IMG/VR virus record: IMGVR_UViG_2718218136_000001
Length of the DNA stretch: 64,000 nt
Source of the DNA: a virus
Taxonomy: Duplodnaviria; Heunggongvirae; Uroviricota; Caudoviricetes
Reading direction: 5' to 3' (one strand)
Below are positions 11,201 to 61,201 of the stretch, one piece after another. The stretch's first letter is position 1; each line of letters begins with the position of its first letter. The notes beneath the pieces are model-generated. The model was not told where the DNA came from. It did not search any database and saw only the letters and a list, made by a program, of their open reading frames with translations. The translations under genes were made by a program, and so were the position numbers.

Positions 11201-11384
11201 CCAGCATCGCCGACTGAGATTTTACGGATATAAATTCATAGCCCTGATTTCGCAGGTCCTGAATCAGTTCACGTTCCAGGTCCGATTCGCTCTGGTAGCT
11301 GTCGCCTGTTGGCTCAGCTTTGATGTACTTATCAAGAACGATAAAGTTATTGGATTCAGCAATGGTGTGTGTCTGATGAGTCAT
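8268..11384 (-). CDS. hsdR: Type I restriction enzyme R subunit (type IC, EcoR124-like)
   Basis: 1038 aa; Walker A TGSGKT, DECH box (FDECHRSQ); own promoter region 11385-11505. Confidence 0.9.
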
Positions 11385-11505
11385 AGCGCATCCTTTGTGC
11401 CGTCTGGCAAGGGCCGGAAGGGGGGTAATGGTGACTTCCGGCGCGTAAAAAATAGTCTATATACTGACCGGGTGTTAAGGTGGTCCGATCGGTAGCAATG
11501 ATCAA

Positions 11506-12737
<1,232 letters not shown>

Positions 12738-12741
<4 letters not shown>

Positions 12742-14300
12742 TTTTGCACCTCGCAGCCTTCAATTTCAGCCACAATCGCATCAATATCTTTACGCAACTG
12801 GTCGATTTTGCTGACCGTGGTTTTCAGCTCAGCATTCAGCTCAGCAATATCGATAATTTCGCGGTTATCTTTCGCTTCCACATAGCTGCTCACCGACAGG
12901 TTATAGTCATTAGCAACAACGGTCTCAAACGCGACAGATTTCGCCAGATGAGCAACATCTTCCTTGCTGGCAAATACCTGCATAATCTGTTCGATATGGG
13001 TATCGGTCAGGATATTGTTGTTAGTCTCTTTTTTGAACAGTTCGCTGGCGTCAATAAACTGAACGTTGGTATCCGTTTTATGTTTGGACAGAACCAGAAT
13101 GTTTACTGCAATGGTGGTGCCAAAGAACAGGTTCGGTGCCAGTGAAATTACGGTTTCGACATAGTTATTGTCAATCAGATACTGACGGATTTTCTGCTCC
13201 GCGCCGCCACGGTAAAAAATACCCGGGAAGCAAACAATCGCAGCACGACCTTTGGCAGAAAGATAGTTCAGCGCATGTAGTACAAAGGCGAAGTCAGCTT
13301 TTGATTTGGGGGCCAGAACGCCAGCCGGGGCAAAACGCTCATCGTTAATCAGTGTCGGGTCATCGCTGCCAATCCATTTCACCGAATACGGCGGGTTAGA
13401 AACGATGGCATCAAACGGTTTTTCATCTCTGAAGTGCGGCTCAGTCAGTGTATTACCCAGCCTGATATCAAACTTGTCGTAGTTGATGTTGTGCAAAAAC
13501 ATGTTCATACGCGCCAGATTATAGGTCGTATGGTTGATTTCCTGACCGAAAAAGCCTTCTTCGATGATATGGTTATCAAACTGCTTTTTAGCCTGCAACA
13601 ACAGTGAGCCGGAACCCGCTGCCGGGTCGTAGATTTTGTTAACGTTGGTCTGCCCGTGCATAGCCAGTTGTGCAATCAGCCTGGAGACGTGCTGCGGTGT
13701 AAAGAACTCACCGCCTGACTTACCAGCATTCGCCGCATAGTTAGAAATCAGGAACTCATAGGCATCGCCGAACAGGTCAATCTGATGTTCGTTAAAGTCG
13801 CCAAGCTTTAAGCCTTCAACCCCTTTCAGGACCGCAGCCAGGCGGGCATTTTTATCCTTAACGGTGTTACCCAGGCGGTTACTGGTGGTATCGAAATCAG
13901 CAAACAGACCTTTGATGTCTGCTTCTGAAGGATAACCGTAAGCAGAACTTTCGATAGCAACGAAGATGCTGTTTAAATCTGCATTCAGTCTGTCATTGGT
14001 ATTTGCTTTCGCCGCTACGTTGCAGAAAAGCTGACTGGGGTAGATGAAGTAGCCTTTAGTTTTGATGGCATCGTCTTTAATATCATCAGTAATTACGCTG
14101 TCATCCAGTTTCGCATAACAGATACTGTCATCACCGGCTTCAATATAGCTGGAAAAATTTTCGCTGATAAAACGGTAGAAAAGTGCGCCCAGAACGTATT
14201 GCTTAAAATCCCATCCATCGACCGAACCCCTGACATCGTTAGCAATTTGCCAGATTTGACGATGAAGCTCTGCACGTTGTTGAATACTTGTCATTTTCAT
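12738..14300 (-). CDS. hsdM: Type I R-M N6-adenine DNA methyltransferase subunit
   Basis: 520 aa; NPPY motif (VSNPPYS) and AdoMet-binding [10 protein letters not shown]. Confidence 0.9.
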
Positions 14301-23367: not shown

Positions 23368-24399
23368 ATGTCCAATTTACTGACCGTACACCAAAATTTG
23401 CCTGCATTACCGGTCGATGCAACGAGTGATGATGTTCGCAAGAACCTGATGGACATGTTCAGGGATCGCCAGGCGTTTTCTGAGCATACATGGAAAATGC
23501 TTCTGTCCGTTTGCCGGTCGTGGGCGGCATGGTGCAAGTTGAATAACCGGAAGTGGTTTCCCGCAGAACCTGAAGATGTTCGCGATTATCTTCTATATCT
23601 TCAGGCGCGCGGTCTGGCAGTAAAAACTATCCAGCAACATTTGGGCCAGCTAAACATGCTTCATCGTCGGTCCGGGCTGCCACGACCAAGTGACAGCAAT
23701 GCTGTTTCACTGGTTATGCGGCGGATCCGAAAAGAAAACGTTGATGCCGGTGAACGTGCAAAACAGGCTCTAGCGTTCGAACGCACTGATTTCGACCAGG
23801 TTCGTTCACTCATGGAAAATAGCGATCGCTGCCAGGATATACGTAATCTGGCATTTCTGGGGATTGCTTATAACACCCTGTTACGTATAGCCGAAATTGC
23901 CAGGATCAGGGTTAAAGATATCTCACGTACTGACGGTGGGAGAATGTTAATCCATATTGGCAGAACGAAAACGCTGGTTAGCACCGCAGGTGTAGAGAAG
24001 GCACTTAGCCTGGGGGTAACTAAACTGGTCGAGCGATGGATTTCCGTCTCTGGTGTAGCTGATGATCCGAATAACTACCTGTTTTGCCGGGTCAGAAAAA
24101 ATGGTGTTGCCGCGCCATCTGCCACCAGCCAGCTATCAACTCGCGCCCTGGAAGGGATTTTTGAAGCAACTCATCGATTGATTTACGGCGCTAAGGATGA
24201 CTCTGGTCAGAGATACCTGGCCTGGTCTGGACACAGTGCCCGTGTCGGAGCCGCGCGAGATATGGCCCGCGCTGGAGTTTCAATACCGGAGATCATGCAA
24301 GCTGGTGGCTGGACCAATGTAAATATTGTCATGAACTATATCCGTAACCTGGATAGTGAAACAGGGGCAATGGTGCGCCTGCTGGAAGATGGCGATTAG
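23368..24399 (+). CDS. cre: Cre tyrosine recombinase
   Basis: 343 aa, MSNLLTVHQNLPALPVDATSD...; essentially the Cre sequence. Confidence 0.98.
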   Translation: MSNLLTVHQNLPALPVDATSDDVRKNLMDMFRDRQAFSEHTWKMLLSVCRSWAAWCKLNNRKWFPAEPEDVRDYLLYLQARGLAVKTIQQHLGQLNMLHRRSGLPRPSDSNAVSLVMRRIRKENVDAGERAKQALAFERTDFDQVRSLMENSDRCQDIRNLAFLGIAYNTLLRIAEIARIRVKDISRTDGGRMLIHIGRTKTLVSTAGVEKALSLGVTKLVERWISVSGVADDPNNYLFCRVRKNGVAAPSATSQLSTRALEGIFEATHRLIYGAKDDSGQRYLAWSGHSARVGAARDMARAGVSIPEIMQAGGWTNVNIVMNYIRNLDSETGAMVRLLEDGD

Positions 24400-24449: not shown

Positions 24450-24761
24450 GTGAGAAAGGATTTCAACATCGACGGAAAATATGTATTGCTGTCTGTAAGC
24501 ACTAATATTCAGTCGCCAGCCGTCATTGTCACTGTAAAGCTGAGCGATAGAATGCCTGATATTGACTCAATATCCGTTGCGTTTCCTGTCAAAAGTATGC
24601 GTAGTGCTGAACATTTCGTGATGAATGCCACCGAGGAAGAAGCACGGCGCGGTTTTGCTAAAGTGATGTCTGAGTTTGGCGAACTCTTGGGTAAGGTTAA
24701 CAATGTCCTTTCAATCAGTTCAGCAAGGTCCAAAGCGTTAACAGCTTCCATGATGAAATAA
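24450..24761 (+). CDS. Small protein downstream of cre (cra position)
   Basis: 103-aa ORF; synteny only. Confidence 0.45.
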   Translation: MRKDFNIDGKYVLLSVSTNIQSPAVIVTVKLSDRMPDIDSISVAFPVKSMRSAEHFVMNATEEEARRGFAKVMSEFGELLGKVNNVLSISSARSKALTASMMK

Positions 24762-24893
24762 AAAAAAGCCTGGCAAGGAGCCAGGCTGCACAAAAGAGCG
24801 GGTTTGTATTCCACATCCAATCAATCAAGAAGGAGTATAGCACACAGGTACTGAAGTGAAAAAATGTGATTCGCGATAAACAAAATACCTATC

Positions 24894-25008: not shown

Positions 25009-25452
25009 ATGAAAACAATCGAACAAAAAATTGAACAGTGCCGCAAGTGGCAGAAGGCAGCCAGAGAACGAGCGATCGCTCGGCAACGGGAGAAGTTGGC
25101 TGATCCGGTCTGGCGAGAATCTCAATATCAGAAAATGCGGGATACTCTCGACCGCCGTATCGCTAAACAGAAAGAGCGCCCACCAGCCAGCAAAACGCGG
25201 AAAAGCGCGGTAAAAATAAAATCTCGTGGCTTGAAGGGGAGAACACCAACGGCGGAGGAACGGCGCATCGCCAATGCTCTTGGCGCTCTCCCCTGCATTG
25301 CCTGCTATATGCATGGAGTAATATCTAATGAGGTGTCTCTGCACCATATCGCCGGTCGTACCGCGCCGGGTTGTCATAAAAAGCAATTGCCACTTTGTAG
25401 ATGGCACCACCAGCATGCAGCTCCGGCTGAAGTAAGAGAAAAATACCCATGA
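25009..25452 (+). CDS. ref: Ref HNH endonuclease (recombination enhancement function), truncated by in-frame TGA
   Basis: MKTIEQKIEQCRKWQ...; HNH signature SLHHIAGR...CRWHHQ; the reading frame continues for 38 more codons after the TGA to a TAA at 25567-25569. Confidence 0.8.
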   Translation: MKTIEQKIEQCRKWQKAARERAIARQREKLADPVWRESQYQKMRDTLDRRIAKQKERPPASKTRKSAVKIKSRGLKGRTPTAEERRIANALGALPCIACYMHGVISNEVSLHHIAGRTAPGCHKKQLPLCRWHHQHAAPAEVREKYP

Positions 25453-25757
25453 CTGGTCCCTGTTCATGCCGATGGTGTGGTTGGAGGCAAGAAAGAATTC
25501 ACCTTGCTGAACAAGTCAGAGATGGAGTTACTGGCTGACGCCTATGAAATGGCAAACATCATGCACTAATAAATATATTATTTTTAATGATAAATGATTG
25601 ACAACTGACAAGTGACTTCAGTCAGAATCATCACACGCCCGGTACGGATGGATCCCTTTTCAAATATTCCATGGACGGCACAGTCTGAGTACCGGGCGCT
25701 ACCTTCAGTTGTATTGCTAAGCCGCCGCTGGTGGCTTTTCTTTTTTGTAGGGGCGCT

Positions 25758-26399
25758 ATGGATAAGAAAATATGCGTTGTTTCAATGAGCGTCGGCAAAC
25801 CGGCGTCAATGACTGCTGCATGGATCAACAATGAGCTGATCATGGCTGAGCGGACCAGCTACCCTGAACGCCGCCGCGATATGGAACTCCAGCTGCTGCG
25901 CGAATTGCGAGAAAAAGAGGAAAAGGGTTTTATCGTGCTGGTGGAAGAGGAAAACAGCTTTATTACCGGTCGAGTTGGCCAGCGTGTAAGGTTGCGTGAT
26001 CCCTTCATGAACGGCAGACCGGTACTGATTGAAGCAATGCAGATTTACAAGGAATTGGAACGCCAGAAAGCGATCAAGTTACCGCGCAAGGAATCCGGCA
26101 AATACATCCTTCACCAAAGCATCTTCGATTCCGAACACGATAAAAAAGGCGATGAATTTTTCAACATCAACTGGAGCGAAATAACGACAGAACATGTTCT
26201 GACGTTACTATGTTGCTTTGCGACGGAATACAACAACGTTGCCAGCGCCGACTACATCAGGGCAATGGCTGGAGAAGTTGAGGCCCGCCAGGAGCCATCG
26301 TTACTAAGCCCTCTGATTAACAGAATTCGCGGAACCCAAACGCTGGCACAAAAACGGGTGCCGAAAGGGGAATTAACAGGAAAAGGAAATTATCTATAA
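25758..26399 (+). CDS. Protein at the mat (particle maturation) position
   Basis: ORF track 25731..26399; ATG at 25758 (MDKKICVV) has a better RBS; synteny. Confidence 0.45.
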   Translation: MDKKICVVSMSVGKPASMTAAWINNELIMAERTSYPERRRDMELQLLRELREKEEKGFIVLVEEENSFITGRVGQRVRLRDPFMNGRPVLIEAMQIYKELERQKAIKLPRKESGKYILHQSIFDSEHDKKGDEFFNINWSEITTEHVLTLLCCFATEYNNVASADYIRAMAGEVEARQEPSLLSPLINRIRGTQTLAQKRVPKGELTGKGNYL

Positions 26400-26455
26400 A
26401 CGTCAATGCATTAGGGTATACTTCTCCATAGAACTATAAGTAAATGGAGTAAGTA

Positions 26456-27556
26456 ATGAGCGAATATGTTGAGTTAGCATACGCTGCCGCTACAAGCAGG
26501 CTTTGTCTATTTACCGGGACTGGCTTTTCAAAGGCAGTCTCGAACGGCGAAGCACCAACGTGGAAAGAACTATTAAAAAAAGTTTGCAGCAAAGTTCACA
26601 ACGCCAAACAGTTGGAAGACACGTTATTCCCTGATGATAAACCACCAGCACTGAGTCTTGAAGAAGCCGCACAAATACTATCTTTGAAGCTCAACATTGA
26701 AGGCAAGTCGATTTATGATGAAATTGTTGACATCATATCTCCAATACAACTTGGCGAAGATATATCAAATATAAAGGATTTTTTTCAAAAAAGAACATTT
26801 CGTGTCATTACAACGAATTATGACAAGTTAGCTGAATACTTAACTGGAGATGAGGAGGTTCAGTCTATTACCCCAGGCTTACCTATTCCTAAATATCCCT
26901 CCAAAGTTAAAATATATCATGTCCATGGTTCTATTGACTCTCCACAAAACATGATTGTTACATCAGAAGACTATTTTAGGTTTATAAACTCCGACACTTA
27001 TTTCTCTCGAAAACTTAGCACGATGCTGCATGAAAATACAGTTGCGATATTAGGCTATTCTTTAAGCGACACGAACCTAAAAGCAATTATAAATGATTAC
27101 AAAATATTCTCGAAAGGTAACACTCTGTGCTCTAATATATTTTTCATCTCTCGCAGTGAAGTAAGTCAAGATATGAAGGATTATTATTTTTATTGTTTTG
27201 GAATACGAGTAATTGACAACACCGAAATAGACTCTTTCTTTAAGAGATTGAGCATTAACATAATGTTAATTGAAGGCGTCATAGCAAGAGCCAGACAAAG
27301 TATAAAAAGAGTTTTATCAGGCACTTTTAACTATAAGGATGAATACATTAGATTAGAAGATTCATTCTATCAAATAACTTCCTCGATTATATCTGAGGGT
27401 TTCGACTGGAATGACGGACAAGTAGTTGATTTTTTTCAAGAGAATAATAAAACAAAAAAGAGACTTAACAAGAGAGAGTGGTGCTTGGGAGCAATACGAG
27501 CAGCTTGCAAAATGGCTTATATATTTCGGCAGCCTTTTAGAAATTGGTGGAACTAA
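26456..27556 (+). CDS. SIR2-family protein (putative NAD+-depleting defence effector), possibly continuing to 27746 after a +1 frameshift
   Basis: FTGTGFS, TTNYD and YHVHGS motifs typical of defence-associated SIR2 domains; AT-rich; overlapping ORF 27426..27746 in another frame looks like the true C-terminus. Confidence 0.65.
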   Translation: MSEYVELAYAAATSRLCLFTGTGFSKAVSNGEAPTWKELLKKVCSKVHNAKQLEDTLFPDDKPPALSLEEAAQILSLKLNIEGKSIYDEIVDIISPIQLGEDISNIKDFFQKRTFRVITTNYDKLAEYLTGDEEVQSITPGLPIPKYPSKVKIYHVHGSIDSPQNMIVTSEDYFRFINSDTYFSRKLSTMLHENTVAILGYSLSDTNLKAIINDYKIFSKGNTLCSNIFFISRSEVSQDMKDYYFYCFGIRVIDNTEIDSFFKRLSINIMLIEGVIARARQSIKRVLSGTFNYKDEYIRLEDSFYQITSSIISEGFDWNDGQVVDFFQENNKTKKRLNKREWCLGAIRAACKMAYIFRQPFRNWWN

Positions 27557-27814
27557 GTATGAAAATGAATATTTAGACGCCGTTGAATACTCAATGTCCA
27601 ACATGAGCAAAGAAATGAGATTAGGTTATTCGTGGCATGCTTATAGAGCTTGGGAAACAAGATGGTCCACAATCATTGCTTCAAATCGATTAATAATAAA
27701 AAACGCATCGAAGAAATTGGCGTACTGGAGGATGCTAATTCTATAGTAAAAGATATAGTGTAATTGAAGAGCGGCAAAAATTTAACGGGCAGCTACAACT
27801 GCCCGATATATAAA

Positions 27815-28063
27815 TCAATCCGCATTCAGGAGCAATGCGTTATCTATGATGATCTGCTCCCATTCTTCGAATGCCCGGTCGCGGACGCCCTGGGGAACGC
27901 TGTTAGTTTTGAAATCGACGACCGTACGCCATTTCCCGTCCGGACGGTACATGCGCAGAGCTTTACTTCCCCCTTCCCTGCGCACCTCAACGTTATGCTT
28001 ATCAGCAAACTCTTGTAATGCTCGTAGCGTCCCATGCTTTACTGTGTAGTATCGCTTTTTCAA
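27815..28063 (-). CDS. lxc: Lxc/Bof-like C1 co-repressor
   Basis: 82-aa basic protein upstream of darB; size and position as P1 lxc. Confidence 0.55.
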   Translation of the reverse strand: MKKRYYTVKHGTLRALQEFADKHNVEVRREGGSKALRMYRPDGKWRTVVDFKTNSVPQGVRDRAFEEWEQIIIDNALLLNAD

Positions 28064-28500
28064 GTTTTCTCTCCAGCCTGTGCCAAGGCTTCAACTTCCA
28101 AATCGTAAGACTCAAACTCATAGTCCTGGTCGTCAACTTCTTCAGGCACTGGCAGTAAATGCCAGGCTGAGTATATCTGACCATTATCAAAACGCTCCTG
28201 GCTGTAGAGCGTCGCGGCTATGAGTGTTAGCGCCGGGCGGTCATAACGGTAAATTTTGCGAACGTCACGGTCAACGAGACGACCGAAATTACCATAACCG
28301 CGCTCCAGTAATAATTTTTTAATTTCCGGCCAGTATGGACCATAGCTGCGGTACAGGCGGGGATTTTTCAGTAATCGCCCGCGTAGCCCTGACAGGAAGA
28401 AATCAACGTATTCGTCTTCTGTCTTTCCTAACAACGCTGTACGGAGTACCGCCTCAAGATATGTTTTATTCGGTTTTATTGTATCAGATAGTGTGGCCAT
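28060..28500 (-). CDS. Ulx-like protein
   Basis: 146 aa, ATGA-coupled to the lxc-like gene, immediately upstream of darB. Confidence 0.45.
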   Translation of the reverse strand: MATLSDTIKPNKTYLEAVLRTALLGKTEDEYVDFFLSGLRGRLLKNPRLYRSYGPYWPEIKKLLLERGYGNFGRLVDRDVRKIYRYDRPALTLIAATLYSQERFDNGQIYSAWHLLPVPEEVDDQDYEFESYDLEVEALAQAGEKT

Positions 28501-28533: not shown

Positions 28534-31500
28534 TTATGCGTATTGTTGGATGACGGCCAGAACGTCCGCCACGTTGTGTTTTGTCTCGATAATCCACCAG
28601 TTACCCGGGAAATCGCTGTTCTTCGCCTTCGCTGGCAGCCAGCGAGCGCCGAATTTCGCCTTGATTGCGTCTTTCGCACGGAAAAGAACGCCTTTCATGC
28701 CTGAGGCTTCCTGAAGCCCAAATACCTCGCCAGCGGCGAATTTTGGTGCGTACATCATCTTCAGGTCGGCGGTGGATACGCGATAATTCAGACCAAGAGA
28801 CTGAGCTATGCTGGTGGCATCACCCTGTATTGATGATAACTCTTCTTGTTTCTCGTTTCTGGCGGCAATTTCTTCCTCCGTGATGTTGCCAAGGGCCAGG
28901 TTTATCCGATCAGCGTCGGCCTGTTTCTCTTCATCGGTGCGCCCGGCAAGAACCGTGTTAATTCTCTGCAATATCTCCACATGATTCTTGCGCATGCTGA
29001 GCAATTCCGGCGTAACCTCGTTAAGATCCACCAGCCCAAGGATGGCAAGGTCGGAAAACATTGATACCAGGTTGTAGGTCATGCGATAGCTGAGTTGGCC
29101 ATAGGCTGATGGCAACTGCACCGCATCCATTTGATAGGCATCCATAAATTTAGAGCCGTCGTTTACGACATCCGCAATTGCAGGTGTGATTTTCCCTGTG
29201 GTGGCGGCCTCCCTGATTGCTGTTACCCATGATTGAGTCAGTGCGGCGACTGCATGATTCAGATTGGCTTCCCGTTCTGCTGCGATGCGCGCGCTTGCTG
29301 AGTCCATTGCCTGCTTGATCTCGGCTTTATTGCTGTAAATGCCAATGGTGCCAAACTGTGCTGTGGTGATCTCATAATCTGACGCCCGGAACTCATGGGT
29401 ACCGAAAATGGCATTGGTGACCTCAAGTTCAGAATCCCCGTTACGAGTAGCCCCCTGGCTTGTTTTCTCCGGCATTTTTGCGATCGCATCCGCTATTTTC
29501 TCCTGAATTACTTCAGGGGATAGCGTATCTCCGTATGACGCGATTACATCGCCATAATTGGAGCCAAACAATTCAACCAGGAATGTTTCTGCCGAACGGA
29601 TCTGGCGGTTATTCCCTTCCGACATCATACCAAGCACCCATTTTGCAATTGACGACTTCAGCGCGCCGTCACGGCGATCCGGGTAAACCGCATGCTTCAG
29701 TGGGGCCGTATAGGAACCAACAAAATCAATGCTATAGCCTGACTCTGTAGTCTGAACGCCGTATGAGTCAGTGATTTTGATCATGCCGCGCTGCTGGAAA
29801 CGGTAGAAATCGTCACAGGAAATGATGTCGTTAATCCCGGCGATGGAGACGCCACCACTGATTTTCTGCATAACAGCATCTTCATCGGGAGTTACATCAA
29901 CCTGTTTATCCAGCGTCTTCACATCCCAGTTACCCGATTTGGTGCCTTTGAAGGTAAAGATGATCTCCACGTCTGCGCGCTGGCTGTCGAAGTCCAGCGA
30001 CTTAATGCGAACGATATCACCGGCACAATCATAGTATTGGCCTACACGCCATGAGCGATCGCCGATAACAAGGAACTCATTCGCATGGTTAACCAGATCA
30101 GGATCAACATCCAGAATGCCTTTATTTATTGCATCCTCCACCAGCGGGCGCAGGCGTTTGATATCCGTCGCGGCCTTCTGAGTACGGTTCAATAATTTCT
30201 CATAGCGGGAGATGGCCTGAGAGATATTAGCCTTGCGCTGAATGGCGCTTTTCAACGACGCGCGATACTGTGCTAACAACATACGGTCTGTGTGATGGAC
30301 GCTACCCCAGCGGGCTTTCCAGTCTGCGTTATCAGCTGCTTTGGCCATTACCGCCTGTTTGAATTTGGCGACGTCGGCGGTGGTCTTTTCAAGTTCCGCT
30401 TTGCTTCGCTCCAATTCAGCGGTAAGTACCTCCACATCCTCACCAGCTGCGTGCTGCGCCTTGATGTAGTTCTGAAGGTCGATAGTAGCCTGTTCTTTCT
30501 GGCGAGCGCGTTTCGCAGCTTTCGCCTTATCCATTTGAACCTGCATCATTACCAGACGTTCGCCGTCATCCTTCGCGGTATACATCTGCATTTCGATCAT
30601 GTCATTGGCGTCGGCGTTCTCCATTTCTGACTTATCTGAACGGAGGATATCGGAGATCCAGCCTGCTTTACGCTTCAGCGTCTTCAGTCGGTATTCATCG
30701 AAAGACCCCTTGCCGCAGTAGTAGTGAACGCGAACGCTTGCACGGTTGGAGCCAACTCGTGCACCGCGACCGTTACGTTGTGCGATACTGGCTGGTGTCC
30801 ACGGCAACGTCAGGTGGTGGATATCCGTCGTTCCTCGATGCAGGTTGATACCCACCTCTGCCTTTTTGTTGCAGATGATGATCGGAGTCCGGCCCTCCTG
30901 GAAGTCGGCTGCAATCTTTTCCAGACCGCCCAACGACATTTCATTTTGCTGCGCGATATAGGCGTCATACAGAGCCATTTGCTCGTTGTATTTCGCTATC
31001 TGTGCATCTGTTGGTTCATCCGGTAGCTCTTTCGGCGGTTTAACCGCTTTCAGTTTCTTACCGGTTTTACCTGCCTCGGCAACCGTCTGAGCATTCAGGA
31101 TCCCCACCTTTGAAGGTTCAAGGTTTAGAGCATTGCAGATAATGCGCTTGAGCTTCTGGTGCTGCGTTTTTTCATCGGTGAAGATGATTTGCTTACCTTC
31201 CGGGAAAAACTCCTTCAGCGTCGCGATCAGCTTCGCGTATTTCGGCGTAACGGGGTGAGTTACGGTCAGTTCGTCAATGCCAAACCTGGCCAGGCGCTTA
31301 TTCACTTCCTGCTCGAACGCTTCCGGAACCTGCAACTGAATAAACTCGCCCTTATCTATCAGGGAGTATTGCGATTGCTGCGTGATTGAATCATCACTGT
31401 CGTCGTCTTCGCTGGTGGCTTGTTTAGGCAAACTGTCCGCAAGCTGCTGCACCGCATCGGCGTACTCCGGCAGGAAACGATAGGTGATCCGGCGATAGTA

Positions 31501-34500
31501 CAGGTCCATGTCAGTACATACGCGGTCCATATCCCTGATTATTGAGAAGATCGGACGGGCTTTCTCGTGCTCAATCACGCCGTCTTCATTGACCGAGGTC
31601 GTTACGCCATTGTTGGCTTTGGCCGCCGCTTCCGCCTGCTGACGCAATTCTTCATACGCCGCCAGTTGTTCTTCAGTAAGTGGTGCATCCTGCTGGTGTT
31701 CGTCCAGCTCCGGGATCTCCACGGTATCCTTAACGTCTTCCGCCGTTTTAAGCGTTACCCAGCGATGGAATATACCGCGCAGCGCATCAAGGTTTTCAAA
31801 GCCCACCAGCGCCATTTTTTCTTCAACTTCACCGCTAATTTTCTGTACCGTTTCCAGCCTGGTCTTGCCGAAGAATTTAACGAAGTCATCAGGACCGTAG
31901 ATCCCCATGTTCTGCCAGTATTCCTTCGGCAGAACATGAGAAAGCATGTTGTATGCATCGATCGGGGTGTTAACGACTGGCGTTGCAGTCAGGAGAACCG
32001 GCCCGCGCCCGCCATTCTTTTTCATCAGGTACGCGTTTTTAATTGCCATATCTCGCGCCGATTGCGCCACCGCGCTGGTGGGCAGATAGGCCAGTTGTGA
32101 CGCTTCGCGACCATTTTTATAGCTATTGCGGTAGTTGTGACCTTCGTCAGCGATCACACTATCGAAGCCCATATCCTCAAAGTACGGATACTTCTCTGCT
32201 TTTTCGGTGCCGGTATCTGAATACTCCGACAATACCCGGCGACGCGCGGCCTCTTTGCGGTGGGAGTCGGAGTCCATTGCGCTGGCTACGCGTCCGGCGG
32301 CAACGAAGTCATAAAGCATATCCTGTGCATGCTCATCTACGGTGTCATCACGTAGCGGAATGCGGGCGTATTGTTCTTTGGTAAACACGACTGCACGGTA
32401 ATTTGAGTGCGGGATCGCGTTCATCCGCGCCGTGATAGTGGCTTCATCTGCCAGCTTAAGAGCATCGCGCATAACTGGAGTGCCATCAGTACCAAGAACA
32501 GGTTTACCGTTCTCATCGAGCACCGGCACCTGGCGAATCTGATCACCATCCATCAGCACATCAAGACCGACGAACAGGTAGTTACTGAATGCCTCTTCAC
32601 TCAGGAATTCTTTTGCTTCGTAATACCAGTTTTCCAGCACTGATTTAGGCACTACATACGCAGTACGGGTGGAGCGACCGTTCTCATAGTTGAACGCCTC
32701 AAGCGCCAGCGCGGTCGTGGTTTTACCCAGCCCGGTGCCGAAGCCCAGGATGCCGCGCCCATCTTCGGACAGTCGGCGCACCTCGCTATTCTGGTAATCA
32801 AATGGCTGGCGCTTACCGCTTAATCCCTTCAACCCAAGCGGATCGCCAGAGTGTTCATACGGGATATTGCTATTGAACACATCGTTGTATTTGGCAACCA
32901 GCTCATCGTAGCGATCGTGCGTCTTGATCCACTTATTGAACTGGTCCTCAAGCAGTGCCATCTGCTCGCGGTAGCCGTTCGCCGTCGCGCTATCTTTGCC
33001 ACCGATACGCGCACCATTGAGATACTTTTCCAGCTGTGCCGGGAACCCGGTCGCGTTTTCACCTGATTTACGGTCCCACTCGTAGCGGATCTCGCCTGTT
33101 TCTTTATCCTTGCGCTGGACGACACCGTATCGGTGCCCGACGAACAGACCATCACCACCGTGATAGGTGTCAGAAACCATTTCGTCGCCTTCCAGCTGCA
33201 CTGACTGCACATAGCGCAGATCCGGATAGCCGTTTTCCTGCAAAAACTCCAGAATGACGGAACGGTCGAACCAACGGCTATTGAGCTTAAACCGGATATT
33301 CTCTGCTGGCGTCTTGATGCGCTTCTCTTCGATCGCTGCCAGCTGATTAAGGACGTTGTTCTTTACTGGACCGTCGGGGAGCGTGGCGAGGAATTCCTGT
33401 TTTGGAGCCACTATCTCGTTAATGTCGCCGCTGGTGGCGCGGGCGAACGGAACAATCCCGCCATACGGTGAAACCGCAATACCAGGAGTGCTGGCCAATA
33501 AATTAAGCAACTCTTCATCACTGGCTGGCAATTCGCCGGTAAACGCAAGGCGGAAATCATCGAGCTGGATTGGATCGCGGGTAAGATCGCTATAGAGATA
33601 ACGCAGGGTGTCCTGATAGCTGGTGGAGTCATAACTGGCGCTGGAATCATGCGTAACCAGCTTTCCTGTCAGCTCGTCAGAAATAGTGCCATCCAGCTTA
33701 ATTGCACCACGGAAAGCAAACCAGGCGCGCGCACCGCTTCCCGATAATTTAGCTATCGGACCGCGACCAGGGTTACCAAAACGGTCAATCTCTGCCTGCA
33801 AACGGGATACCAGAGAAAGGCGCTGCTGTTCGATTTGTTCAGCACTATGCCCGGCGGCCTTCATATCCTGATATTCAATTAACATCCGGCCAATCATCGC
33901 CCCACGATACAAGCGTTCACGGTATTTTTCAGGCTGGCTGTTAATCCAGTCCACCAGCGGCACCATATCGTCGCTGATTGATGTGGTGTACTTATCGCGG
34001 ACATTTGCCATCTGGGTAAATGTCATACCGAGACGGCCTTCTGTTGTAGTCAGGTTACGCTGAAGAGCCTCCCAGCTATCCGCGCCATAACTGGCAGCAT
34101 CAATTTTAAGTTCCTTCCCGGCATCAGCTTCAATCCAGCGACCACCAGCATATTTTTGCCATACGCCATTAATCAGGCGCATTTCCCCTTCACCAACAAC
34201 GTCTGCGGTCAGTGACGGTTCAGCCATATCGAGCAAAGACCAGTCGATACGGCTTTCGAAACGATGAATCAGCTTCGCTTTAAGAGCCTGGTTATCAATC
34301 TGACCGTCGGCACGAACCTCAATACGCCCCTGGAAGCCCTTTTCCTGGGTGCCATGAACAAACCGGCGGCCATCCTTTTCAAACCACTTGCCAGAAATAA
34401 ACGTTGGCCAAAGCACATTTGCTGATTCAAGAGTGCTTTCATCCACCAGGGAGATTTTCTCAGCCATCTCTGCCGGATGTTTGCGCATCAGCACCACATC

Positions 34501-35301
34501 AACGATTGTACTGGTCCCGTTTGCGTCAAAAGTACCGGTAGGCAAGCGGTGAGCGCCAAGAAATTCAGCTTTACGGGATAGGCGCAGGCGTAACCGCTTC
34601 ATGTTTGAACCTGAAACAATGGACGGCGGCACAATCACACACATGAATCCGCCAGGCTTTATCTTGTCCAGCATGCGGAGCATGAAGTAAGAACCCATGT
34701 CCGTTTCTTCTGCGTAAGGCTTATCGATGTTGCGTGTGTTATCACGACCACCGAACGGAACGTTACCCACAACATGGTCGAATGAATCGTTAGGCGTGCT
34801 TACAGCCAGCTGTTCGAACGGGGAAATCTGTACGCTGTCTTCCGGGTGTAACAGCTGGTTTATACGACCGGAAACACTGCTGATCTCAGTCGCGGTCATC
34901 ACCGTACCAACCGGTTTTGTCTCATTAAAAACGCCGGTGCCCGCCGATGGTTCCAGAGTGTTACCTACGTCCGCGCCGTAGAGCTTCATGATCTCCCAGA
35001 CACCTTCAGCGATCGGCTTTGGTGTGTAATATTCGGAGACGGACCCGCCAATGCCGCCTTCACCGGTGTACCCAGCCAGGATCTGGCGCTGTTCATCTGT
35101 CAGTGTCGCGCCGTCCACCAGCGAATTAAGCAAATCTATCGCCTTCTGATTCGCCTCCCGGCGCAGTCGGTCATAGCTTTTGCCTTCCACCTTTTCCACG
35201 CCGTATTTAATCGGCGCTCGGTGAGATGTTATTGCCCTAATGTATTTTAATATTTCGCTGACACTTGAACAGCGAAACACCCCCATAGATAGCTTGTTCA
35301 T
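28534..35301 (-). CDS. darB: DarB antirestriction protein (methyltransferase plus helicase domains)
   Basis: 2255 aa, same length as P1 DarB; helicase Walker A GFGTGLGKTTT and DEGH box. Confidence 0.9.
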   Translation of the reverse strand: MNKLSMGVFRCSSVSEILKYIRAITSHRAPIKYGVEKVEGKSYDRLRREANQKAIDLLNSLVDGATLTDEQRQILAGYTGEGGIGGSVSEYYTPKPIAEGVWEIMKLYGADVGNTLEPSAGTGVFNETKPVGTVMTATEISSVSGRINQLLHPEDSVQISPFEQLAVSTPNDSFDHVVGNVPFGGRDNTRNIDKPYAEETDMGSYFMLRMLDKIKPGGFMCVIVPPSIVSGSNMKRLRLRLSRKAEFLGAHRLPTGTFDANGTSTIVDVVLMRKHPAEMAEKISLVDESTLESANVLWPTFISGKWFEKDGRRFVHGTQEKGFQGRIEVRADGQIDNQALKAKLIHRFESRIDWSLLDMAEPSLTADVVGEGEMRLINGVWQKYAGGRWIEADAGKELKIDAASYGADSWEALQRNLTTTEGRLGMTFTQMANVRDKYTTSISDDMVPLVDWINSQPEKYRERLYRGAMIGRMLIEYQDMKAAGHSAEQIEQQRLSLVSRLQAEIDRFGNPGRGPIAKLSGSGARAWFAFRGAIKLDGTISDELTGKLVTHDSSASYDSTSYQDTLRYLYSDLTRDPIQLDDFRLAFTGELPASDEELLNLLASTPGIAVSPYGGIVPFARATSGDINEIVAPKQEFLATLPDGPVKNNVLNQLAAIEEKRIKTPAENIRFKLNSRWFDRSVILEFLQENGYPDLRYVQSVQLEGDEMVSDTYHGGDGLFVGHRYGVVQRKDKETGEIRYEWDRKSGENATGFPAQLEKYLNGARIGGKDSATANGYREQMALLEDQFNKWIKTHDRYDELVAKYNDVFNSNIPYEHSGDPLGLKGLSGKRQPFDYQNSEVRRLSEDGRGILGFGTGLGKTTTALALEAFNYENGRSTRTAYVVPKSVLENWYYEAKEFLSEEAFSNYLFVGLDVLMDGDQIRQVPVLDENGKPVLGTDGTPVMRDALKLADEATITARMNAIPHSNYRAVVFTKEQYARIPLRDDTVDEHAQDMLYDFVAAGRVASAMDSDSHRKEAARRRVLSEYSDTGTEKAEKYPYFEDMGFDSVIADEGHNYRNSYKNGREASQLAYLPTSAVAQSARDMAIKNAYLMKKNGGRGPVLLTATPVVNTPIDAYNMLSHVLPKEYWQNMGIYGPDDFVKFFGKTRLETVQKISGEVEEKMALVGFENLDALRGIFHRWVTLKTAEDVKDTVEIPELDEHQQDAPLTEEQLAAYEELRQQAEAAAKANNGVTTSVNEDGVIEHEKARPIFSIIRDMDRVCTDMDLYYRRITYRFLPEYADAVQQLADSLPKQATSEDDDSDDSITQQSQYSLIDKGEFIQLQVPEAFEQEVNKRLARFGIDELTVTHPVTPKYAKLIATLKEFFPEGKQIIFTDEKTQHQKLKRIICNALNLEPSKVGILNAQTVAEAGKTGKKLKAVKPPKELPDEPTDAQIAKYNEQMALYDAYIAQQNEMSLGGLEKIAADFQEGRTPIIICNKKAEVGINLHRGTTDIHHLTLPWTPASIAQRNGRGARVGSNRASVRVHYYCGKGSFDEYRLKTLKRKAGWISDILRSDKSEMENADANDMIEMQMYTAKDDGERLVMMQVQMDKAKAAKRARQKEQATIDLQNYIKAQHAAGEDVEVLTAELERSKAELEKTTADVAKFKQAVMAKAADNADWKARWGSVHHTDRMLLAQYRASLKSAIQRKANISQAISRYEKLLNRTQKAATDIKRLRPLVEDAINKGILDVDPDLVNHANEFLVIGDRSWRVGQYYDCAGDIVRIKSLDFDSQRADVEIIFTFKGTKSGNWDVKTLDKQVDVTPDEDAVMQKISGGVSIAGINDIISCDDFYRFQQRGMIKITDSYGVQTTESGYSIDFVGSYTAPLKHAVYPDRRDGALKSSIAKWVLGMMSEGNNRQIRSAETFLVELFGSNYGDVIASYGDTLSPEVIQEKIADAIAKMPEKTSQGATRNGDSELEVTNAIFGTHEFRASDYEITTAQFGTIGIYSNKAEIKQAMDSASARIAAEREANLNHAVAALTQSWVTAIREAATTGKITPAIADVVNDGSKFMDAYQMDAVQLPSAYGQLSYRMTYNLVSMFSDLAILGLVDLNEVTPELLSMRKNHVEILQRINTVLAGRTDEEKQADADRINLALGNITEEEIAARNEKQEELSSIQGDATSIAQSLGLNYRVSTADLKMMYAPKFAAGEVFGLQEASGMKGVLFRAKDAIKAKFGARWLPAKAKNSDFPGNWWIIETKHNVADVLAVIQQYA
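35231..35247 (+). promoter_or_regulatory. C1-operator-like site in the darB/prt divergent region
   Basis: attgccctaatgtattt. Confidence 0.4.
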
Positions 35302-42248: not shown

Positions 42249-42809
42249 ATGCTAATAGGCTATGTACGCGTATCAACAAATGAACAAAACACTGCTTTAC
42301 AACGAAACGCTCTTGAAAGCGCAGGATGTGAGCTAATTTTTGAGGACAAGGCGAGCGGCAAAAAGGCTGAGCGCCCTGGGTTAAAAAAGGTACTCCGTAT
42401 GCTTTCCAGAGGTGATACCCTGGTCGTATGGAAGTTAGATCGTCTTGGGCGCAGCATGCGTCACTTAGTTGTGCTGGTGGAAGAGCTGCGTGACAGAGGC
42501 ATTAACTTCCGGAGTCTCACTGACTCCATCGACACCAGTACACCAATGGGGCGCTTTTTCTTTCACGTAATGGGGGCGCTGGCAGAAATGGAACGTGAAC
42601 TTATTGTTGAACGTACACGCGCTGGACTTGATGCAGCTCGCGCAGAAGGTCGAATAGGTGGGCGTCGGCCTAAATACCAGAAAGAAACATGGCAGCAAAT
42701 GCGGCGATTGCTGGAGAAGGGCATCCCCCGTAAGCAGGTTGCAATCATCTATGATGTGGCTGTTTCCACTCTTTATAAGAAGTTTCCGGCGTCATCATTT
42801 CAATCCTAA
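42249..42809 (+). CDS. cin: Cin serine invertase
   Basis: 186 aa, MLIGYVRVSTNEQNTALQ...; resolvase catalytic Ser and C-terminal HTH; ends at cixL. Confidence 0.95.
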   Translation: MLIGYVRVSTNEQNTALQRNALESAGCELIFEDKASGKKAERPGLKKVLRMLSRGDTLVVWKLDRLGRSMRHLVVLVEELRDRGINFRSLTDSIDTSTPMGRFFFHVMGALAEMERELIVERTRAGLDAARAEGRIGGRRPKYQKETWQQMRRLLEKGIPRKQVAIIYDVAVSTLYKKFPASSFQS

Positions 42810-42826
42810 ACCTTGGTTTAAGAGAA
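42801..42826. other. cixL crossover site (caatcctaaacc-tt-ggtttaagagaa)
   Basis: 26-bp imperfect dyad at the outer edge of the left inverted repeat. Confidence 0.75.
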
Positions 42827-43409
42827 CTCGGTACCAGCGGTGAAAAGATCCCCCTGTTGAGCACGGCTAACACATGGAGTGCACGCCAGACTTTCAACGG
42901 CGGGATCACCGGGGCGCTGACAGGGAACGCCGATACCGCAACAAAATTGAAAACAGCCAGAAACATTAATGGCGTCAGGTTCGATGGTTCTGGTGACATT
43001 AATATCAATACTCTGGTATCGCGCGGTCGCGTAACGGCCCTGGAGGCGAATGCACAGGGAACATCCGGGATTCAGCTGTATGAGGCATACAACAATGGCT
43101 ACCCTTCCCCCTATGGCAATGTGCTTCACCTTAAAGGTGCCACCGCTGCTGGCGAAGGTGAGTTATTCATTGGCTGGAGTGGCACGAGCGGTACCCATGC
43201 GCCCGTACATATCCGTTCGCGGCGGGATACTGATTCTGCCAACTGGTCTGAATGGGCGCAGGTCTATACGTCAAAAGATTCAATTCCCGGCGTCAATGCC
43301 AAAGGGGATCAGGATACCTCTGGTAATGCGGCTACAGCGACCAAGTTGCAGACAGCATGTACTATCAACGGTGTCTCGTTTGATGGTTCTAAAAATATTG
43401 AGCTAACGG
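42811..43409. repeat. Left ~600-bp inverted repeat of the invertible C segment
   Basis: Reverse-complement identical to 46514-47111. Confidence 0.9.
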
Positions 43410-44371
43410 TTGAAAATTTAAATCTTGAGCGAACAGTAGAATTAGCCGCTGGGTCATTGCAGAAAAATCAGAACGGCGCGGATATTCCTGGAAAAGATAC
43501 CTTCACTAAAAATATTGGTGCATGTCGCGCTTTTCACAGTTCTATTAGTACAGGTGCAGGGAACTGGACAACGGCACAATTGATTGAATGGCTGGATTCT
43601 CAAGGGGCATTCAATCACCCATACTGGATGTGCAAATGTTCATGGTCGTACGGCAATAATAAAATTATAACCGATACTGGCTGTGGAACTATTCATCTTG
43701 CAGGTTGCGTTATTGAGGTTATGGGTAATAAAGGTGCCATGACCATACGCGTTACTACGCCGAGCACGTCCAGCGGTGGCGGAATCACTAACGCTCAATT
43801 CACTTATATTAATCATGGTGATGCTTACGCTCCTGGCTGGCGACGAGACTACAACACGAAAAACCAGCAGCCTGCATTTGCTTTAGGGCAAACAGGACGC
43901 AGGGTCGCAAATGATAAAGCTGTTGGCTGGAACTGGAATAGCGGCGTTTATGATGCAGATATCAGTGGCGCATCGACATTAATCCTCCACTTTAATATGA
44001 ATGCGGGGAGTTGCCCTGCTGTACAGTTCCGCGTGAATTACAGAAATGGCGGTATCTTTTATCGTTCAGCGCGTGATGGTTATGGCTTTGAAGCTAACTG
44101 GTCAGAGTTTTACACCACAACACGCAAACCCTCTGCGGGAGATGTTGGTGCATATACGCAGGCAGAATGTAACTCAAGGTTTATTACAGGTATTCGCCTT
44201 GGCGGTCTGTCATCTGTTCAGACATGGAATGGTCCTGGCTGGTCTGACAGGTCAGGTTATGTCGTTACTGGTTCAGTTAACGGAAACCGTGATGAATTAA
44301 TTGATACAACTCAGGCAAGGCCAATTCAGTATTGCATTAATGGGACGTGGTATAACGCGGGGAGTATTTAA
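42857..44371 (+). CDS. Alternative tail-fibre variable cassette Sv' (silent in this orientation)
   Basis: Promoterless; first ~185 aa identical to an internal part of S; distinct C-terminal domain. Confidence 0.8.
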   Translation: MSTANTWSARQTFNGGITGALTGNADTATKLKTARNINGVRFDGSGDININTLVSRGRVTALEANAQGTSGIQLYEAYNNGYPSPYGNVLHLKGATAAGEGELFIGWSGTSGTHAPVHIRSRRDTDSANWSEWAQVYTSKDSIPGVNAKGDQDTSGNAATATKLQTACTINGVSFDGSKNIELTVENLNLERTVELAAGSLQKNQNGADIPGKDTFTKNIGACRAFHSSISTGAGNWTTAQLIEWLDSQGAFNHPYWMCKCSWSYGNNKIITDTGCGTIHLAGCVIEVMGNKGAMTIRVTTPSTSSGGGITNAQFTYINHGDAYAPGWRRDYNTKNQQPAFALGQTGRRVANDKAVGWNWNSGVYDADISGASTLILHFNMNAGSCPAVQFRVNYRNGGIFYRSARDGYGFEANWSEFYTTTRKPSAGDVGAYTQAECNSRFITGIRLGGLSSVQTWNGPGWSDRSGYVVTGSVNGNRDELIDTTQARPIQYCINGTWYNAGSI

Positions 44372-44373
44372 TT

Positions 44374-44907
44374 ATGATGCACTTAAGAAATATTACAGCT
44401 GGCAACCCTAAAACAAAAGAGCAATACCAGCTAACGAAACAATTTAACATCAAATGGCTTTATACAGAGGATGGAAAAAACTGGTATGAGGAACAAAAGA
44501 ATTTCCAGTATGATACGTTGAAAATGGCCTATGACCACAACGGCGTTATTATTTGTATTGAAAAGGATGTTTCAGCAATTAATCCAGAAGGCGCAAGCGT
44601 CGTTGAATTACCTGATATTACAGCAAATCGCCGGGCTGATATTTCTGGTAAATGGATGTTCAAAGATGGCGTAGTGGTAAAGCGAACTTATACCGAGGAA
44701 GAGCAGAGGCAACAAGCGGAAAATGAAAAGCAAAGTCTGCTACAGCTCGTCAGGGATAAAACCCAGCTATGGGACTCACAGCTACGGCTGGGTATCATTT
44801 CCGCCGAGAATAAGCAGAAATTAACCGAGTGGATGCTCTTTGCGCAGAAAGTCGAATCCACAGACACCTCCAGCCTACCAGTAACATTTCCCGAACAACC
44901 TGAATGA
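44374..44907 (+). CDS. Alternative tail-fibre assembly chaperone U'
   Basis: 177 aa, N-terminus MMHL(R/K)NI(T/Q)AGN shared with U. Confidence 0.8.
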   Translation: MMHLRNITAGNPKTKEQYQLTKQFNIKWLYTEDGKNWYEEQKNFQYDTLKMAYDHNGVIICIEKDVSAINPEGASVVELPDITANRRADISGKWMFKDGVVVKRTYTEEEQRQQAENEKQSLLQLVRDKTQLWDSQLRLGIISAENKQKLTEWMLFAQKVESTDTSSLPVTFPEQPE

Positions 44908-44935
44908 GACAAGGCCCGATAGCGGGCCTTAATTT

Positions 44936-45463: not shown

Positions 45464-45464
45464 A

Positions 45465-58630: not shown

Positions 58631-58647
58631 CCTGCTCTAATAAATTT
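58631..58647 (+). promoter_or_regulatory. C1-operator-like site upstream of the second c4-icd-ant region
   Basis: cctgctctaataaattt. Confidence 0.5.
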
Positions 58648-58955: not shown

Positions 58956-58960
58956 TAACT

Positions 58961-61172: not shown

Positions 61173-61201
61173 CAGACGTAGTAAGAACCACCAGCATTGT
61201 A

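What the first reader, a model, noticed from the sequence alone, without database searches (positions are those of the whole stretch)
26456..27746. SIR2-family putative NADase gene sits where P1 carries its type III res-mod, and is split by a +1 frameshift at a homopolymer
Between mat and lxc, P1 (recollection) carries the EcoP1I type III R-M genes. Here there is instead a single AT-rich gene whose N-terminal half carries the TTNYD and HG motifs of defence-associated SIR2 domains (Thoeris ThsA, DSR and pAgo-associated SIR2 classes). The 366-codon frame ends at 27556, but an overlapping frame (27426..27746) encodes a more protein-like C-terminus containing EIGGTKYENE, possibly a SLOG/LOG-type ligand-binding fold. 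A T7 run (27430-27436) and an A6 run (27454-27459) lie at the junction. No TIR (ThsB-like) or HerA partner is visible nearby, so this is either an orphan single-gene SIR2 system, a decayed Thoeris-like system, or an undescribed SIR2 architecture at a phage-plasmid defence hotspot.
Basis: partly seen in the sequence, partly recalled or inferred. Interest (0 to 1): 0.8.

Follow-up and report, generated by a model that had tools for sequence, protein, structure and literature searches.

The report
Frameshifted single-gene SIR2 defence candidate
A P1-like phage-plasmid carries, in the slot where phage P1 keeps its restriction enzyme, a broken copy of a widespread but untested one-protein SIR2 (NAD-destroying) candidate anti-phage gene; the break is a real inherited mutation, and the family is a reasonable target for experiments but not a new kind of system.

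Summary
Window 26456-27556 encodes a 366-aa protein with a Pfam SIR2_2 domain (E 3e-23) and the catalytic TTNYD and HVHG motifs. It lies exactly between the mat and lxc stop codons, where P1 carries EcoP1I res/mod.

Relatives in 125 plasmids carry an intact 435-aa gene. The window differs by two homopolymer indels, not one:
- T7 at 27430-27436, where relatives have T6.
- A6 at 27698-27703, where relatives have A7.

The true gene end is 27763. The T7 frameshift is real, because three independent assemblies encode the same 366-aa product. They have A7, so the A6 deletion is private to this record. That record is an untrimmed, indel-prone assembly, so A6 may be an error.

The C-terminal domain is not SLOG. 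It is a 180-aa all-alpha, HEAT-like solenoid found only in this SIR2 family. No TIR, HerA, pAgo or other partner is conserved in six distant genomic contexts. Intact alleles are under purifying selection (dN/dS about 0.13).

Best reading: a pseudogenised copy of an uncharacterised, single-protein, DSR-like NADase abortive-infection gene. Defence function is inferred, not shown. Interest is moderate.

The parts
26400..27814 (+). Cargo segment of the mat-lxc hotspot. Homology to other P1-like elements stops at the mat stop codon and resumes at the lxc stop codon.
   Evidence: Boundary comparison with RCS47 (empty site), P1 (res/mod) and vB_EcoM-673R5 (RelA/SpoT pair), with annotations. GC is 35.6% against 47.6% for the window.
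26446..26449 (+). GGAG ribosome-binding site, 6 nt upstream of the ATG at 26456.
   Evidence: Read from the sequence. No sigma-70-like site was found on the + strand between mat and the ATG.
26456..27429 (+). Native-frame part of the SIR2 gene (aa 1-325). It covers the full SIR2_2 Rossmann domain (aa 1-255) and the first helices of the C-terminal solenoid.
   Evidence: TTNYD is at 26810-26824 and HVHG at 26918-26929; N121 and H157 align to DSR2 N133 and H171.
26456..27556 (+). The 366-aa ORF as it stands, annotated in RefSeq as WP_225088618.1. The last 41 aa are out of frame.
27430..27436 (+). T7 run, a +1 insertion relative to the T6 of intact alleles. This is a real, inherited frameshift.
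   Evidence: The same T7 is present in GCA_916160465.1, ERR1880019 and ERR15823409.
27437..27697 (+). Segment encoding native aa 326-412, now readable only in the +1 frame. It is part of the 27426..27746 ORF.
27698..27703 (+). A6 run, a -1 deletion relative to the A7 of intact alleles and of the three sister assemblies. It is private to this record and is either a late mutation or an assembly error.
   Evidence: The record is indel-prone.
27704..27763 (+). The last 19 native codons plus the TAA stop, back in the original frame.
   Evidence: the corrected translation is collinear with WP_032271833.1, differing at two residues (A222T and L299I).
27786..27805 (.). GC-rich hairpin (CGGGCAG..CTGCCCG) between the convergent SIR2 and lxc genes, probably a terminator.
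   Evidence: Analogous hairpins lie at the same place in RCS47 and 673R5 cargo.
25758..26399 (+). mat (maturation control), the left backbone flank.
27815..28063 (-). lxc (modulator of C1), the right backbone flank. It is followed by ulx at 28060-28500 and darB at 28534-35301.

Best explanation
The locus is a pseudogenised allele of a compact single-protein family. Each member has an N-terminal SIR2_2 NADase domain (aa 1-255) joined to a family-specific alpha-solenoid of about 180 aa (aa 258-431).

Shown:
- The gene is the cargo of the P1 mat-lxc variable slot.
- Intact 435-aa alleles are common in P1-like plasmids.
- Those intact alleles are under purifying selection.
- This lineage carries a real T6-to-T7 slippage frameshift. 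It truncates the protein after aa 325 and removes most of the conserved solenoid.

Inferred:
- By analogy with DSR2 and DSR1, the intact protein would be a self-contained abortive-infection system.
- The solenoid would hold the SIR2 domain inactive and bind a phage-made protein.
- Binding would release NAD+ hydrolysis. NAD+ depletion would then stop the infecting phage and protect the plasmid-bearing population.
- In this plasmid the system is most likely dead.
- The extra A7-to-A6 change is either a later hit in a dead gene or a long-read deletion error.
For: Domain and catalytic residues:
- SIR2_2 E 3e-23.
- PADLOC hits are only to SIR2 portions of PDC-S25, ThsA, LmuA and Dsr1/2.
- TTNYD and HVHG are invariant in 27 homologues. 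They align to the DSR2 catalytic N133 and H171.

Structure:
- The full-length model has pLDDT 85 and pTM 0.80. Foldseek best hits are DSR2, ThsA and KomC.
- A profile of the C-terminal domain, searched against 1.84 billion proteins, finds 97 representatives. All full-length ones are SIR2_2 plus this domain, 406-480 aa long.

Context:
- The gene is solitary in six distant contexts, all mobile or defence-rich. These include the lambdoid prophage int-att junction, and positions near HNH/HerA, Mrr and GmrSD genes.
- The slot holds EcoP1I in P1.

Selection:
- dN/dS is 0.12-0.14 in both domains.

The frameshift:
- It is real, because the exact 366-aa product is encoded in three more assemblies, all with T7 and A7.

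Published mechanism:
- DSR proteins deplete NAD+. The DSR2 alpha-solenoid CTD binds the phage tail tube protein (abstracts of 10.1101/2021.12.14.472415 and PMC11850899).
Against: - No experiment on this family was found.
- No close homologue exists in 50,697 deposited phage genomes.
- No own promoter was detected. The gene may be read through from mat, which is C1-repressed or late in P1, and that is awkward for a prophage defence gene.
- The NADase activity, the trigger and the oligomeric state are all untested.
- The assembly is indel-prone, and its other copy of this region shows T6.
Confidence: 0.6

Rival explanations
1. The split is a sequencing or assembly artefact, and the gene is intact in this plasmid.
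For: - The record is an untrimmed circular assembly. Window 24316-63906 duplicates record 1-39615, with 144 gap positions between the two copies.
- The other copy of this gene shows T6 at the first site.
- Both indels are in homopolymers. The AT-rich gene holds 6 of the 17 runs of 6 or more bases in the 14.7-kb collinear block.
Against: - Three independent assemblies, two of them Logan assemblies of other runs, encode the identical 366-aa product and carry T7.
- The other copy in the record has 7 deletion events in this gene alone, so its T6 is weak evidence.
- No other gene in the well-covered block is frameshifted.
- For the A6 site alone, the artefact reading remains open at about even odds.
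Confidence: 0.05
2. The frameshifted allele is still used. Either low-level transcriptional or +1 ribosomal slippage on the U7 run restores some full-length protein, acting as a phase-variable or dosage-limited toxic effector, or the 366-aa SIR2 fragment works alone.
For: - The T7 allele persists in at least four isolates with almost no other change.
- The downstream frame stays open to the native stop in the three A7 sisters.
- The complete SIR2 domain is retained.
Against: - A run of 7 is short for efficient slippage.
- No stimulatory element or RBS precedes the downstream frame.
- 12 of 13 near-identical alleles in complete genomes are simply intact.
- A neighbouring accessory gene, ref, is also knocked out in this lineage (W148*), which fits plain decay.
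- Another lineage lost the N-terminus by deletion (P0005).
Confidence: 0.08
3. The family is not an anti-phage defence. It could instead be a counter-defence, a plasmid-competition or addiction function, or a true NAD-dependent protein deacylase as RefSeq names it.
For: - RefSeq calls it 'SIR2 family NAD-dependent protein deacylase'.
- It sits next to the P1 Dar anti-restriction genes ulx and darB.
- No functional data were found.
Against: - It matches SIR2_2 (PF13289), not the canonical sirtuin family, at E <= 1.
- Its nearest solved relatives are all defence NADases.
- It occupies the P1 restriction-modification slot, the prophage int-att moron site and defence islands.
- The RefSeq name is generic.
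Confidence: 0.15
4. It is a decayed Thoeris (ThsA without ThsB), or an orphan component of SIR2-HerA, pAgo or Lamassu systems.
For: PADLOC ThsA1 E 1e-17 and LmuA E 1.5e-16. The LmuA profile (433 positions) is about the same length as the protein.
Against: - All these hits cover only the SIR2 half.
- The C-terminal half is all-alpha and is not SLOG.
- The two-domain architecture is fixed in every full-length relative.
- No TIR, HerA, pAgo or SMC partner is conserved in six contexts.
Confidence: 0.02

Closest known systems
DSR2 / DSR1 (defence-associated sirtuins; Gao 2020, Garb 2022)
   Same: - It is a single-gene system with an N-terminal SIR2_2 domain carrying the same catalytic N and H.
- DSR2 is the best sequence and fold match among solved structures.
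- The C-terminal region is predicted to be a helical-repeat solenoid, the fold class of the DSR2 sensor domain (PMC11850899 abstract).
   Different: - It is 435 aa, against about 1,000-1,260 aa for DSR proteins.
- NCBIfam Dsr1/Dsr2 equivalog scores are 26 and 22 bits against a cut-off of 1,400.
- The solenoid has no detectable sequence or specific fold similarity to the DSR helical domains.
- The trigger and oligomeric state are unknown.
Thoeris ThsA (SIR2-SLOG)
   Same: The size is similar (about 476 aa) and the SIR2_2 NADase domain is related (PADLOC ThsA1 E 1e-17; PDB 6lhx and 8bto).
   Different: - There is no SLOG domain; the C-terminus is all-alpha.
- There is no ThsB/TIR gene here or in relatives.
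PADLOC candidate PDC-S25
   Same: It is the best PADLOC hit (E 1.7e-27), and both are single-gene SIR2 candidates.
   Different: - Only about 160 of 517 profile positions align, and these are the SIR2 core. The rest of the architecture differs.
- PDC-S25 is itself untested, as far as one mention in the library shows.
EcoP1I type III R-M of phage P1
   Same: It occupies the identical genomic slot between the mat and lxc stop codons.
   Different: It is unrelated in sequence and mechanism, and consists of one gene of 1.3 kb instead of res+mod at about 6 kb.

Membership tests
Pfam SIR2_2 (PF13289) defence-type sirtuin domain | Profile match above the gathering score | tested here: met
   82.9 bits against a cut-off of 24.5, E 3e-23, aa 117-252.
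Pfam SIR2_2 (PF13289) defence-type sirtuin domain | Catalytic Asn (TTNYD) and His (HG) conserved | tested here: met
   N121, D123, H155 and H157 are invariant in 27 homologues. They align to the DSR2 TTNYD and H171.
Pfam SIR2_2 (PF13289) defence-type sirtuin domain | NAD+ hydrolase activity | not testable with these tools
   Needs a biochemical assay.
Thoeris ThsA | C-terminal SLOG (cADPR-isomer-binding) domain | tested here: not met
Thoeris ThsA | Adjacent ThsB (TIR) gene | tested here: not met
   The neighbours are mat, lxc, ulx and darB. No TIR gene appears in six distant contexts.
DSR1 / DSR2 | Full-length match to the NCBIfam equivalog (NF041818 / NF041819) | tested here: not met
   26.2 and 21.8 bits against a cut-off of 1,400; only the SIR2 core aligns.
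DSR1 / DSR2 | Single-gene system with N-terminal SIR2 and a C-terminal helical sensor | tested here: met
   The gene is solitary in all contexts, and the SIR2-plus-alpha-solenoid layout is predicted. The sensor role is inferred only.
DSR1 / DSR2 | Phage protein-triggered NAD+ depletion giving abortive infection | not testable with these tools
   Needs infection assays.
SIR2-HerA | Adjacent HerA (DUF87) ATPase | tested here: not met
   None is present in the window annotation. One DUF87 gene lies 2.6 kb away in the Halomonas locus only, where it is paired with its own 401-aa gene.
Short pAgo SIR2-APAZ (SPARSA) | APAZ domain and an adjacent short pAgo | tested here: not met
   No pAgo gene is seen in any context. 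The PADLOC 'SIR2' models match weakly, and over the SIR2 core only.
Lamassu LmuA (SIR2 type) | Full-length LmuA match plus an LmuB SMC-like partner | tested here: not met
   Only profile positions 14-224 of 433 align. There is no LmuB in the window.
Canonical sirtuin protein deacylase (Pfam SIR2, PF02146) | Match to the canonical sirtuin profile | tested here: not met
   No PF02146 hit at E <= 1. The RefSeq product name is generic.
P1 mat-lxc variable cargo slot | Backbone homology breaks at the mat stop and the lxc stop, with different cargo in different elements | tested here: met
   P1 has res/mod+IS5, RCS47 is empty, and 673R5/SJ46 carry a RelA/SpoT pair.

The most novel reading that the evidence does not exclude
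The intact 434-aa SIR2 plus mini-solenoid protein is a previously undescribed, minimal, self-contained sensor-effector NADase immune protein, in effect a 'mini-DSR' less than half the size of DSR1/DSR2. It would spread as a swappable allele set at the P1 restriction slot and at lambdoid int-att sites. The recurrent knock-outs would then reflect a cost or self-targeting conflict with the carrier phage's own lytic cycle. Those knock-outs are the T7 frameshift here and the Mat::SIR2 deletion elsewhere.
Probability: 0.3. Interest if true: 0.6.

Novelty: new variant of a known kind. Interest (0 to 1): 0.4.

Why it matters
If the intact protein defends against phage, it would be the smallest known SIR2 immune protein that carries its own sensor. 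Its 180-aa recognition domain would be tractable for structural work and for finding the trigger.

It is also one of the commoner cargos of a well-defined defence slot in P1-like phage-plasmids, appearing in 125 of 694 mat-bearing plasmids. These elements move resistance genes among Enterobacteriaceae.

For this particular window the gene is broken, so the window shows gene decay rather than a working system. The analysis also shows that this public record is an untrimmed, indel-prone assembly. That affects any other 'frameshift' called in this window.

Tried and rejected
- **SLOG or ligand-binding C-terminus.** Rejected by the structure model and by the absence of any profile hit.
- **Decayed Thoeris, SIR2-HerA, pAgo or Lamassu component.** Rejected because no partner is conserved and the architecture is fixed.
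- **Upstream 179-aa and 207-aa genes in Halomonas and Pseudoalteromonas as a hidden partner.** They share no similarity.
- **C-terminal domain fused to other effectors (modular sensor).** Not found. All genuine hits are SIR2_2 fusions, and two long hits are spurious glycosidase or lectin proteins.
- **Pure sequencing artefact for the T7 frameshift.** I considered this seriously after finding the duplicated, error-rich record ends. I then rejected it because three independent assemblies share T7.
- **Close homologues in deposited phage genomes.** None by DNA. By protein there are only weak SIR2-core hits.
- **Literature on this family, its accessions, PDC-S25, or a P1 mat-lxc hotspot.** Nothing specific was found.
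- **An afdb50 fold search.** This library was unavailable.

Full report
**What is in the sequence**

The window is identical to plasmid unnamed3 of E. coli O177:H21 (NZ_CP016549.1), a P1-like phage-plasmid. The local gene order is:
- cre 23368-24399
- c8
- ref
- mat 25758-26399
- the SIR2 ORF 26456-27556
- then, on the other strand, lxc 27815-28063, ulx 28060-28500 and darB 28534-35301

The 366-aa ORF matches Pfam SIR2_2 at E 3e-23, with 82.9 bits against a gathering score of 24.5. It carries TTNYD at 26810-26824 and HVHG at 26918-26929. The gene is 35.6% GC in a 47.6% GC window.

**The frameshift**

Megablast finds the gene in 125 plasmid records and in 134 of 5,426 complete E. coli genomes. 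Nearly all copies are on P1-like plasmids, and the intact CDS is annotated at 435 aa.

Alignment to three intact alleles (99.4%, 88% and 84% identical) shows two indels in the window:
- An extra T in the T run at 27430-27436 (T7 against T6).
- A missing A in the A run at 27698-27703 (A6 against A7).

Removing one T and adding one A gives a 435-aa protein ending at 27763. It is collinear with WP_032271833.1 and differs from it at two residues, A222T and L299I. The two indels do not rescue each other, because the shifted frame reaches a stop at 27554-27556.

**Real mutation or artefact**

The record raises a serious warning.
- Its first 39,615 bases duplicate its last 39,591 (window 24316-63906). 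This is the signature of a circular long-read contig whose overlapping ends were not trimmed.
- The two copies differ at 144 gap positions, almost all short deletions. These pile up in record 1-14257 and in window 58592-63906.
- The other copy of the SIR2 gene has seven deletion events. It reads T6 at the first site and A6 at the second.

On that evidence alone the frameshift could not be trusted. However, a look-up of the exact 366-aa product finds it in three further assemblies: GCA_916160465.1 and Logan assemblies of ERR1880019 and ERR15823409.
- These differ from the window at only 3-4 positions over 7.1 kb, and all read T7 at the first site. The +1 frameshift is therefore a real allele inherited in a plasmid lineage.
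- All three read A7 at the second site. The A6 deletion is thus private to this record. It is either a later mutation in an already dead gene or a deletion error of the kind this assembly makes. I cannot tell which.

The same lineage also carries a shared nonsense mutation in ref, TGG to TGA at 25452, giving W148*. A different decayed allele, in which Mat residues 1-81 are fused to SIR2 residues 126-435 by a deletion, exists in other contigs.

**The slot**

In P1 itself, mat ends at 3468. The res gene, mod (interrupted by IS5) and their promoters fill 3544 to about 9700, and lxc ends at 9750. Other P1-like elements differ at the same site:
- RCS47 has 39 bp there.
- vB_EcoM-673R5 and SJ46 have a RelA/SpoT gene plus a second gene.

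Backbone homology breaks immediately after the mat stop codon and resumes at the lxc stop codon. Each cargo brings its own GC-rich hairpin next to lxc. Of 694 PLSDB plasmids with mat, 125 match the SIR2 segment.

The SIR2 alleles differ from one another far more (dS 0.5-0.8) than the flanking backbone does (96-98% identity). This indicates that old alleles are exchanged by recombination. dN/dS is 0.12-0.14 overall, 0.05-0.09 in the SIR2 domain and 0.14-0.16 in the C-terminal domain. Intact alleles are therefore maintained by selection.

**The protein family**

A search of 5.8 billion proteins returns 704 relatives.
- They are nearly all 431-444 aa long.
- They are 52-60% identical over the full length.
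- They come from Xenorhabdus, Pantoea, Klebsiella, Vibrio, Halomonas, Pseudoalteromonas, Marinobacter, Pseudomonas, Paracidovorax and Delftia.

Invariant residues include the TTNYD and YHVHGS motifs. A C-terminal set is also invariant: W344, Q346, Y347, W353, S392, W393, W399, W403, N410 and R411.

AlphaFold on a 27-sequence alignment gives pLDDT 85 and pTM 0.80. The model has a Rossmann-type SIR2 domain to about aa 255, followed by nine helices.
- The best Foldseek and sequence matches among solved structures are the SIR2 domains of DSR2, ThsA and KomC.
- The C-terminal domain modelled alone has pLDDT 90.
- It has no Pfam, PADLOC or PDB sequence match.
- It has no significant Foldseek hit.

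It is not a SLOG domain. A profile of this domain, searched against 1.84 billion representative proteins, finds 97 proteins. Every full-length genuine hit is SIR2_2 plus this domain, at 406-480 aa. So the domain is private to this family and is not shuffled onto other effectors.

**Partners**

None is conserved.
- The 59%-identical E. coli chromosomal homologue lies alone between the integrase of a lambdoid prophage and the narP/ccm chromosomal flank.
- In Halomonas it sits among HNH, DUF4145 and HerA-like genes.
- In Pseudomonas it is next to an Mrr-type nuclease.
- In Vibrio it is near a GmrSD gene.
- In Pseudoalteromonas and Paracidovorax it is among unrelated genes.
- The short upstream genes in two of these loci are unrelated to each other.

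**Most likely mechanism**

The intact protein looks like a miniature defence-associated sirtuin. It is one polypeptide with an NADase effector and a helical-repeat domain that probably autoinhibits the effector and recognises a phage product. In DSR2 the alpha-solenoid CTD binds the phage tail tube protein and switches on NAD+ hydrolysis. DSR proteins deplete NAD+ and abort infection (abstracts of PMC11850899 and 10.1101/2021.12.14.472415, listed).

What is shown:
- the domain identity
- the conserved catalytic residues
- the fixed two-domain architecture
- the solitary, mobile and defence-rich contexts
- purifying selection on intact alleles

What is inferred:
- NADase activity
- the sensing role of the solenoid
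- abortive infection

One awkward point is that no promoter-like site lies between mat and the ATG. In P1, mat is under a C1 operator and a late promoter. Expression in the lysogen therefore needs testing.

In this window the product stops after 325 native residues and lacks most of the conserved solenoid, so the system is most likely inactive.

**Comparison with known systems**

It fails the membership tests for all of the following:
- Thoeris: no SLOG domain and no ThsB.
- SIR2-HerA.
- pAgo-SIR2.
- Lamassu.
- DSR1/DSR2 equivalogs: 26 bits against a cut-off of 1,400.
- PADLOC PDC-S25: only the SIR2 core aligns.

It works most like a DSR, but it is not a member by sequence. No paper in the held library mentions the family, its accessions or the P1 mat-lxc slot as a defence hotspot. 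That library is incomplete, and I could not run DefenseFinder.

**Verdict**

- The SLOG and Thoeris ideas are rejected.
- The 'orphan single-gene SIR2' reading is the best one.

The specific copy is a real pseudogene in an error-prone public record. The family is an annotated but uncharacterised variant of a known kind of system. Interest is moderate (0.4).

Noticed in passing
window 24316-63906 (= NZ_CP016549.1 86456-126046), duplicated at record 1-39615; window 63907-64000 wraps to record 1-94: The public record is an untrimmed circular assembly, so the true plasmid is about 86.4 kb rather than 126 kb. The two copies differ by 144 gap positions. About 80 single-base deletions lie in window 58592-63906, so apparent frameshifts in the last 5.4 kb of this window are suspect.
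   Followed up: yes
window 42803-47120: The tail-fibre invertible (C) segment next to the recombinase gene at 42249-42809 is in opposite orientation in the two assembly copies. The sequenced population therefore contained both Cin orientations.
   Followed up: partly
window 25009-25569 (stop at 25450-25452): ref carries a W148* nonsense change (TGG to TGA at 25452). It is shared by the three sister assemblies, making ref a second real knock-out of an accessory gene in this lineage.
   Followed up: yes
window 8268-14294: A complete type I R-M system (hsdR, hsdS, hsdM) sits just upstream of phd/doc, where the close relative NZ_CP027575 has humD. This looks like a second defence-cargo site in the same plasmid.
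   Followed up: no
protein P0005, other contigs: A 392-aa Mat(1-81)::SIR2(126-435) fusion created by a deletion that removes the TTNYD motif. This is an independent decay route for the same gene.
   Followed up: partly
window 24760-24767: An intergenic A run is length-variable: A8 here, A9 in the other copy of the record and A6 in NZ_CP027575.
   Followed up: no
L008-L011, gene at 8001-9311: A 59%-identical chromosomal homologue in E. coli lies alone between a lambdoid prophage integrase and the narP/ccm flank. This is a classic moron or defence position.
   Followed up: partly
L012 (Halomonas daqingensis), 1100-11667: Here the homologue is embedded in a dense island. The island holds two HNH genes, a DUF4145 gene, an HSDR_N gene and a 401-aa plus DUF87 (HerA-like) pair.
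   Followed up: no
L007 2578-3677 (vB_EcoM-673R5) and SJ46: The same mat-lxc slot holds a RelA/SpoT-family gene plus a 180-aa gene, possibly a toxSAS toxin-antitoxin or defence pair.
   Followed up: no
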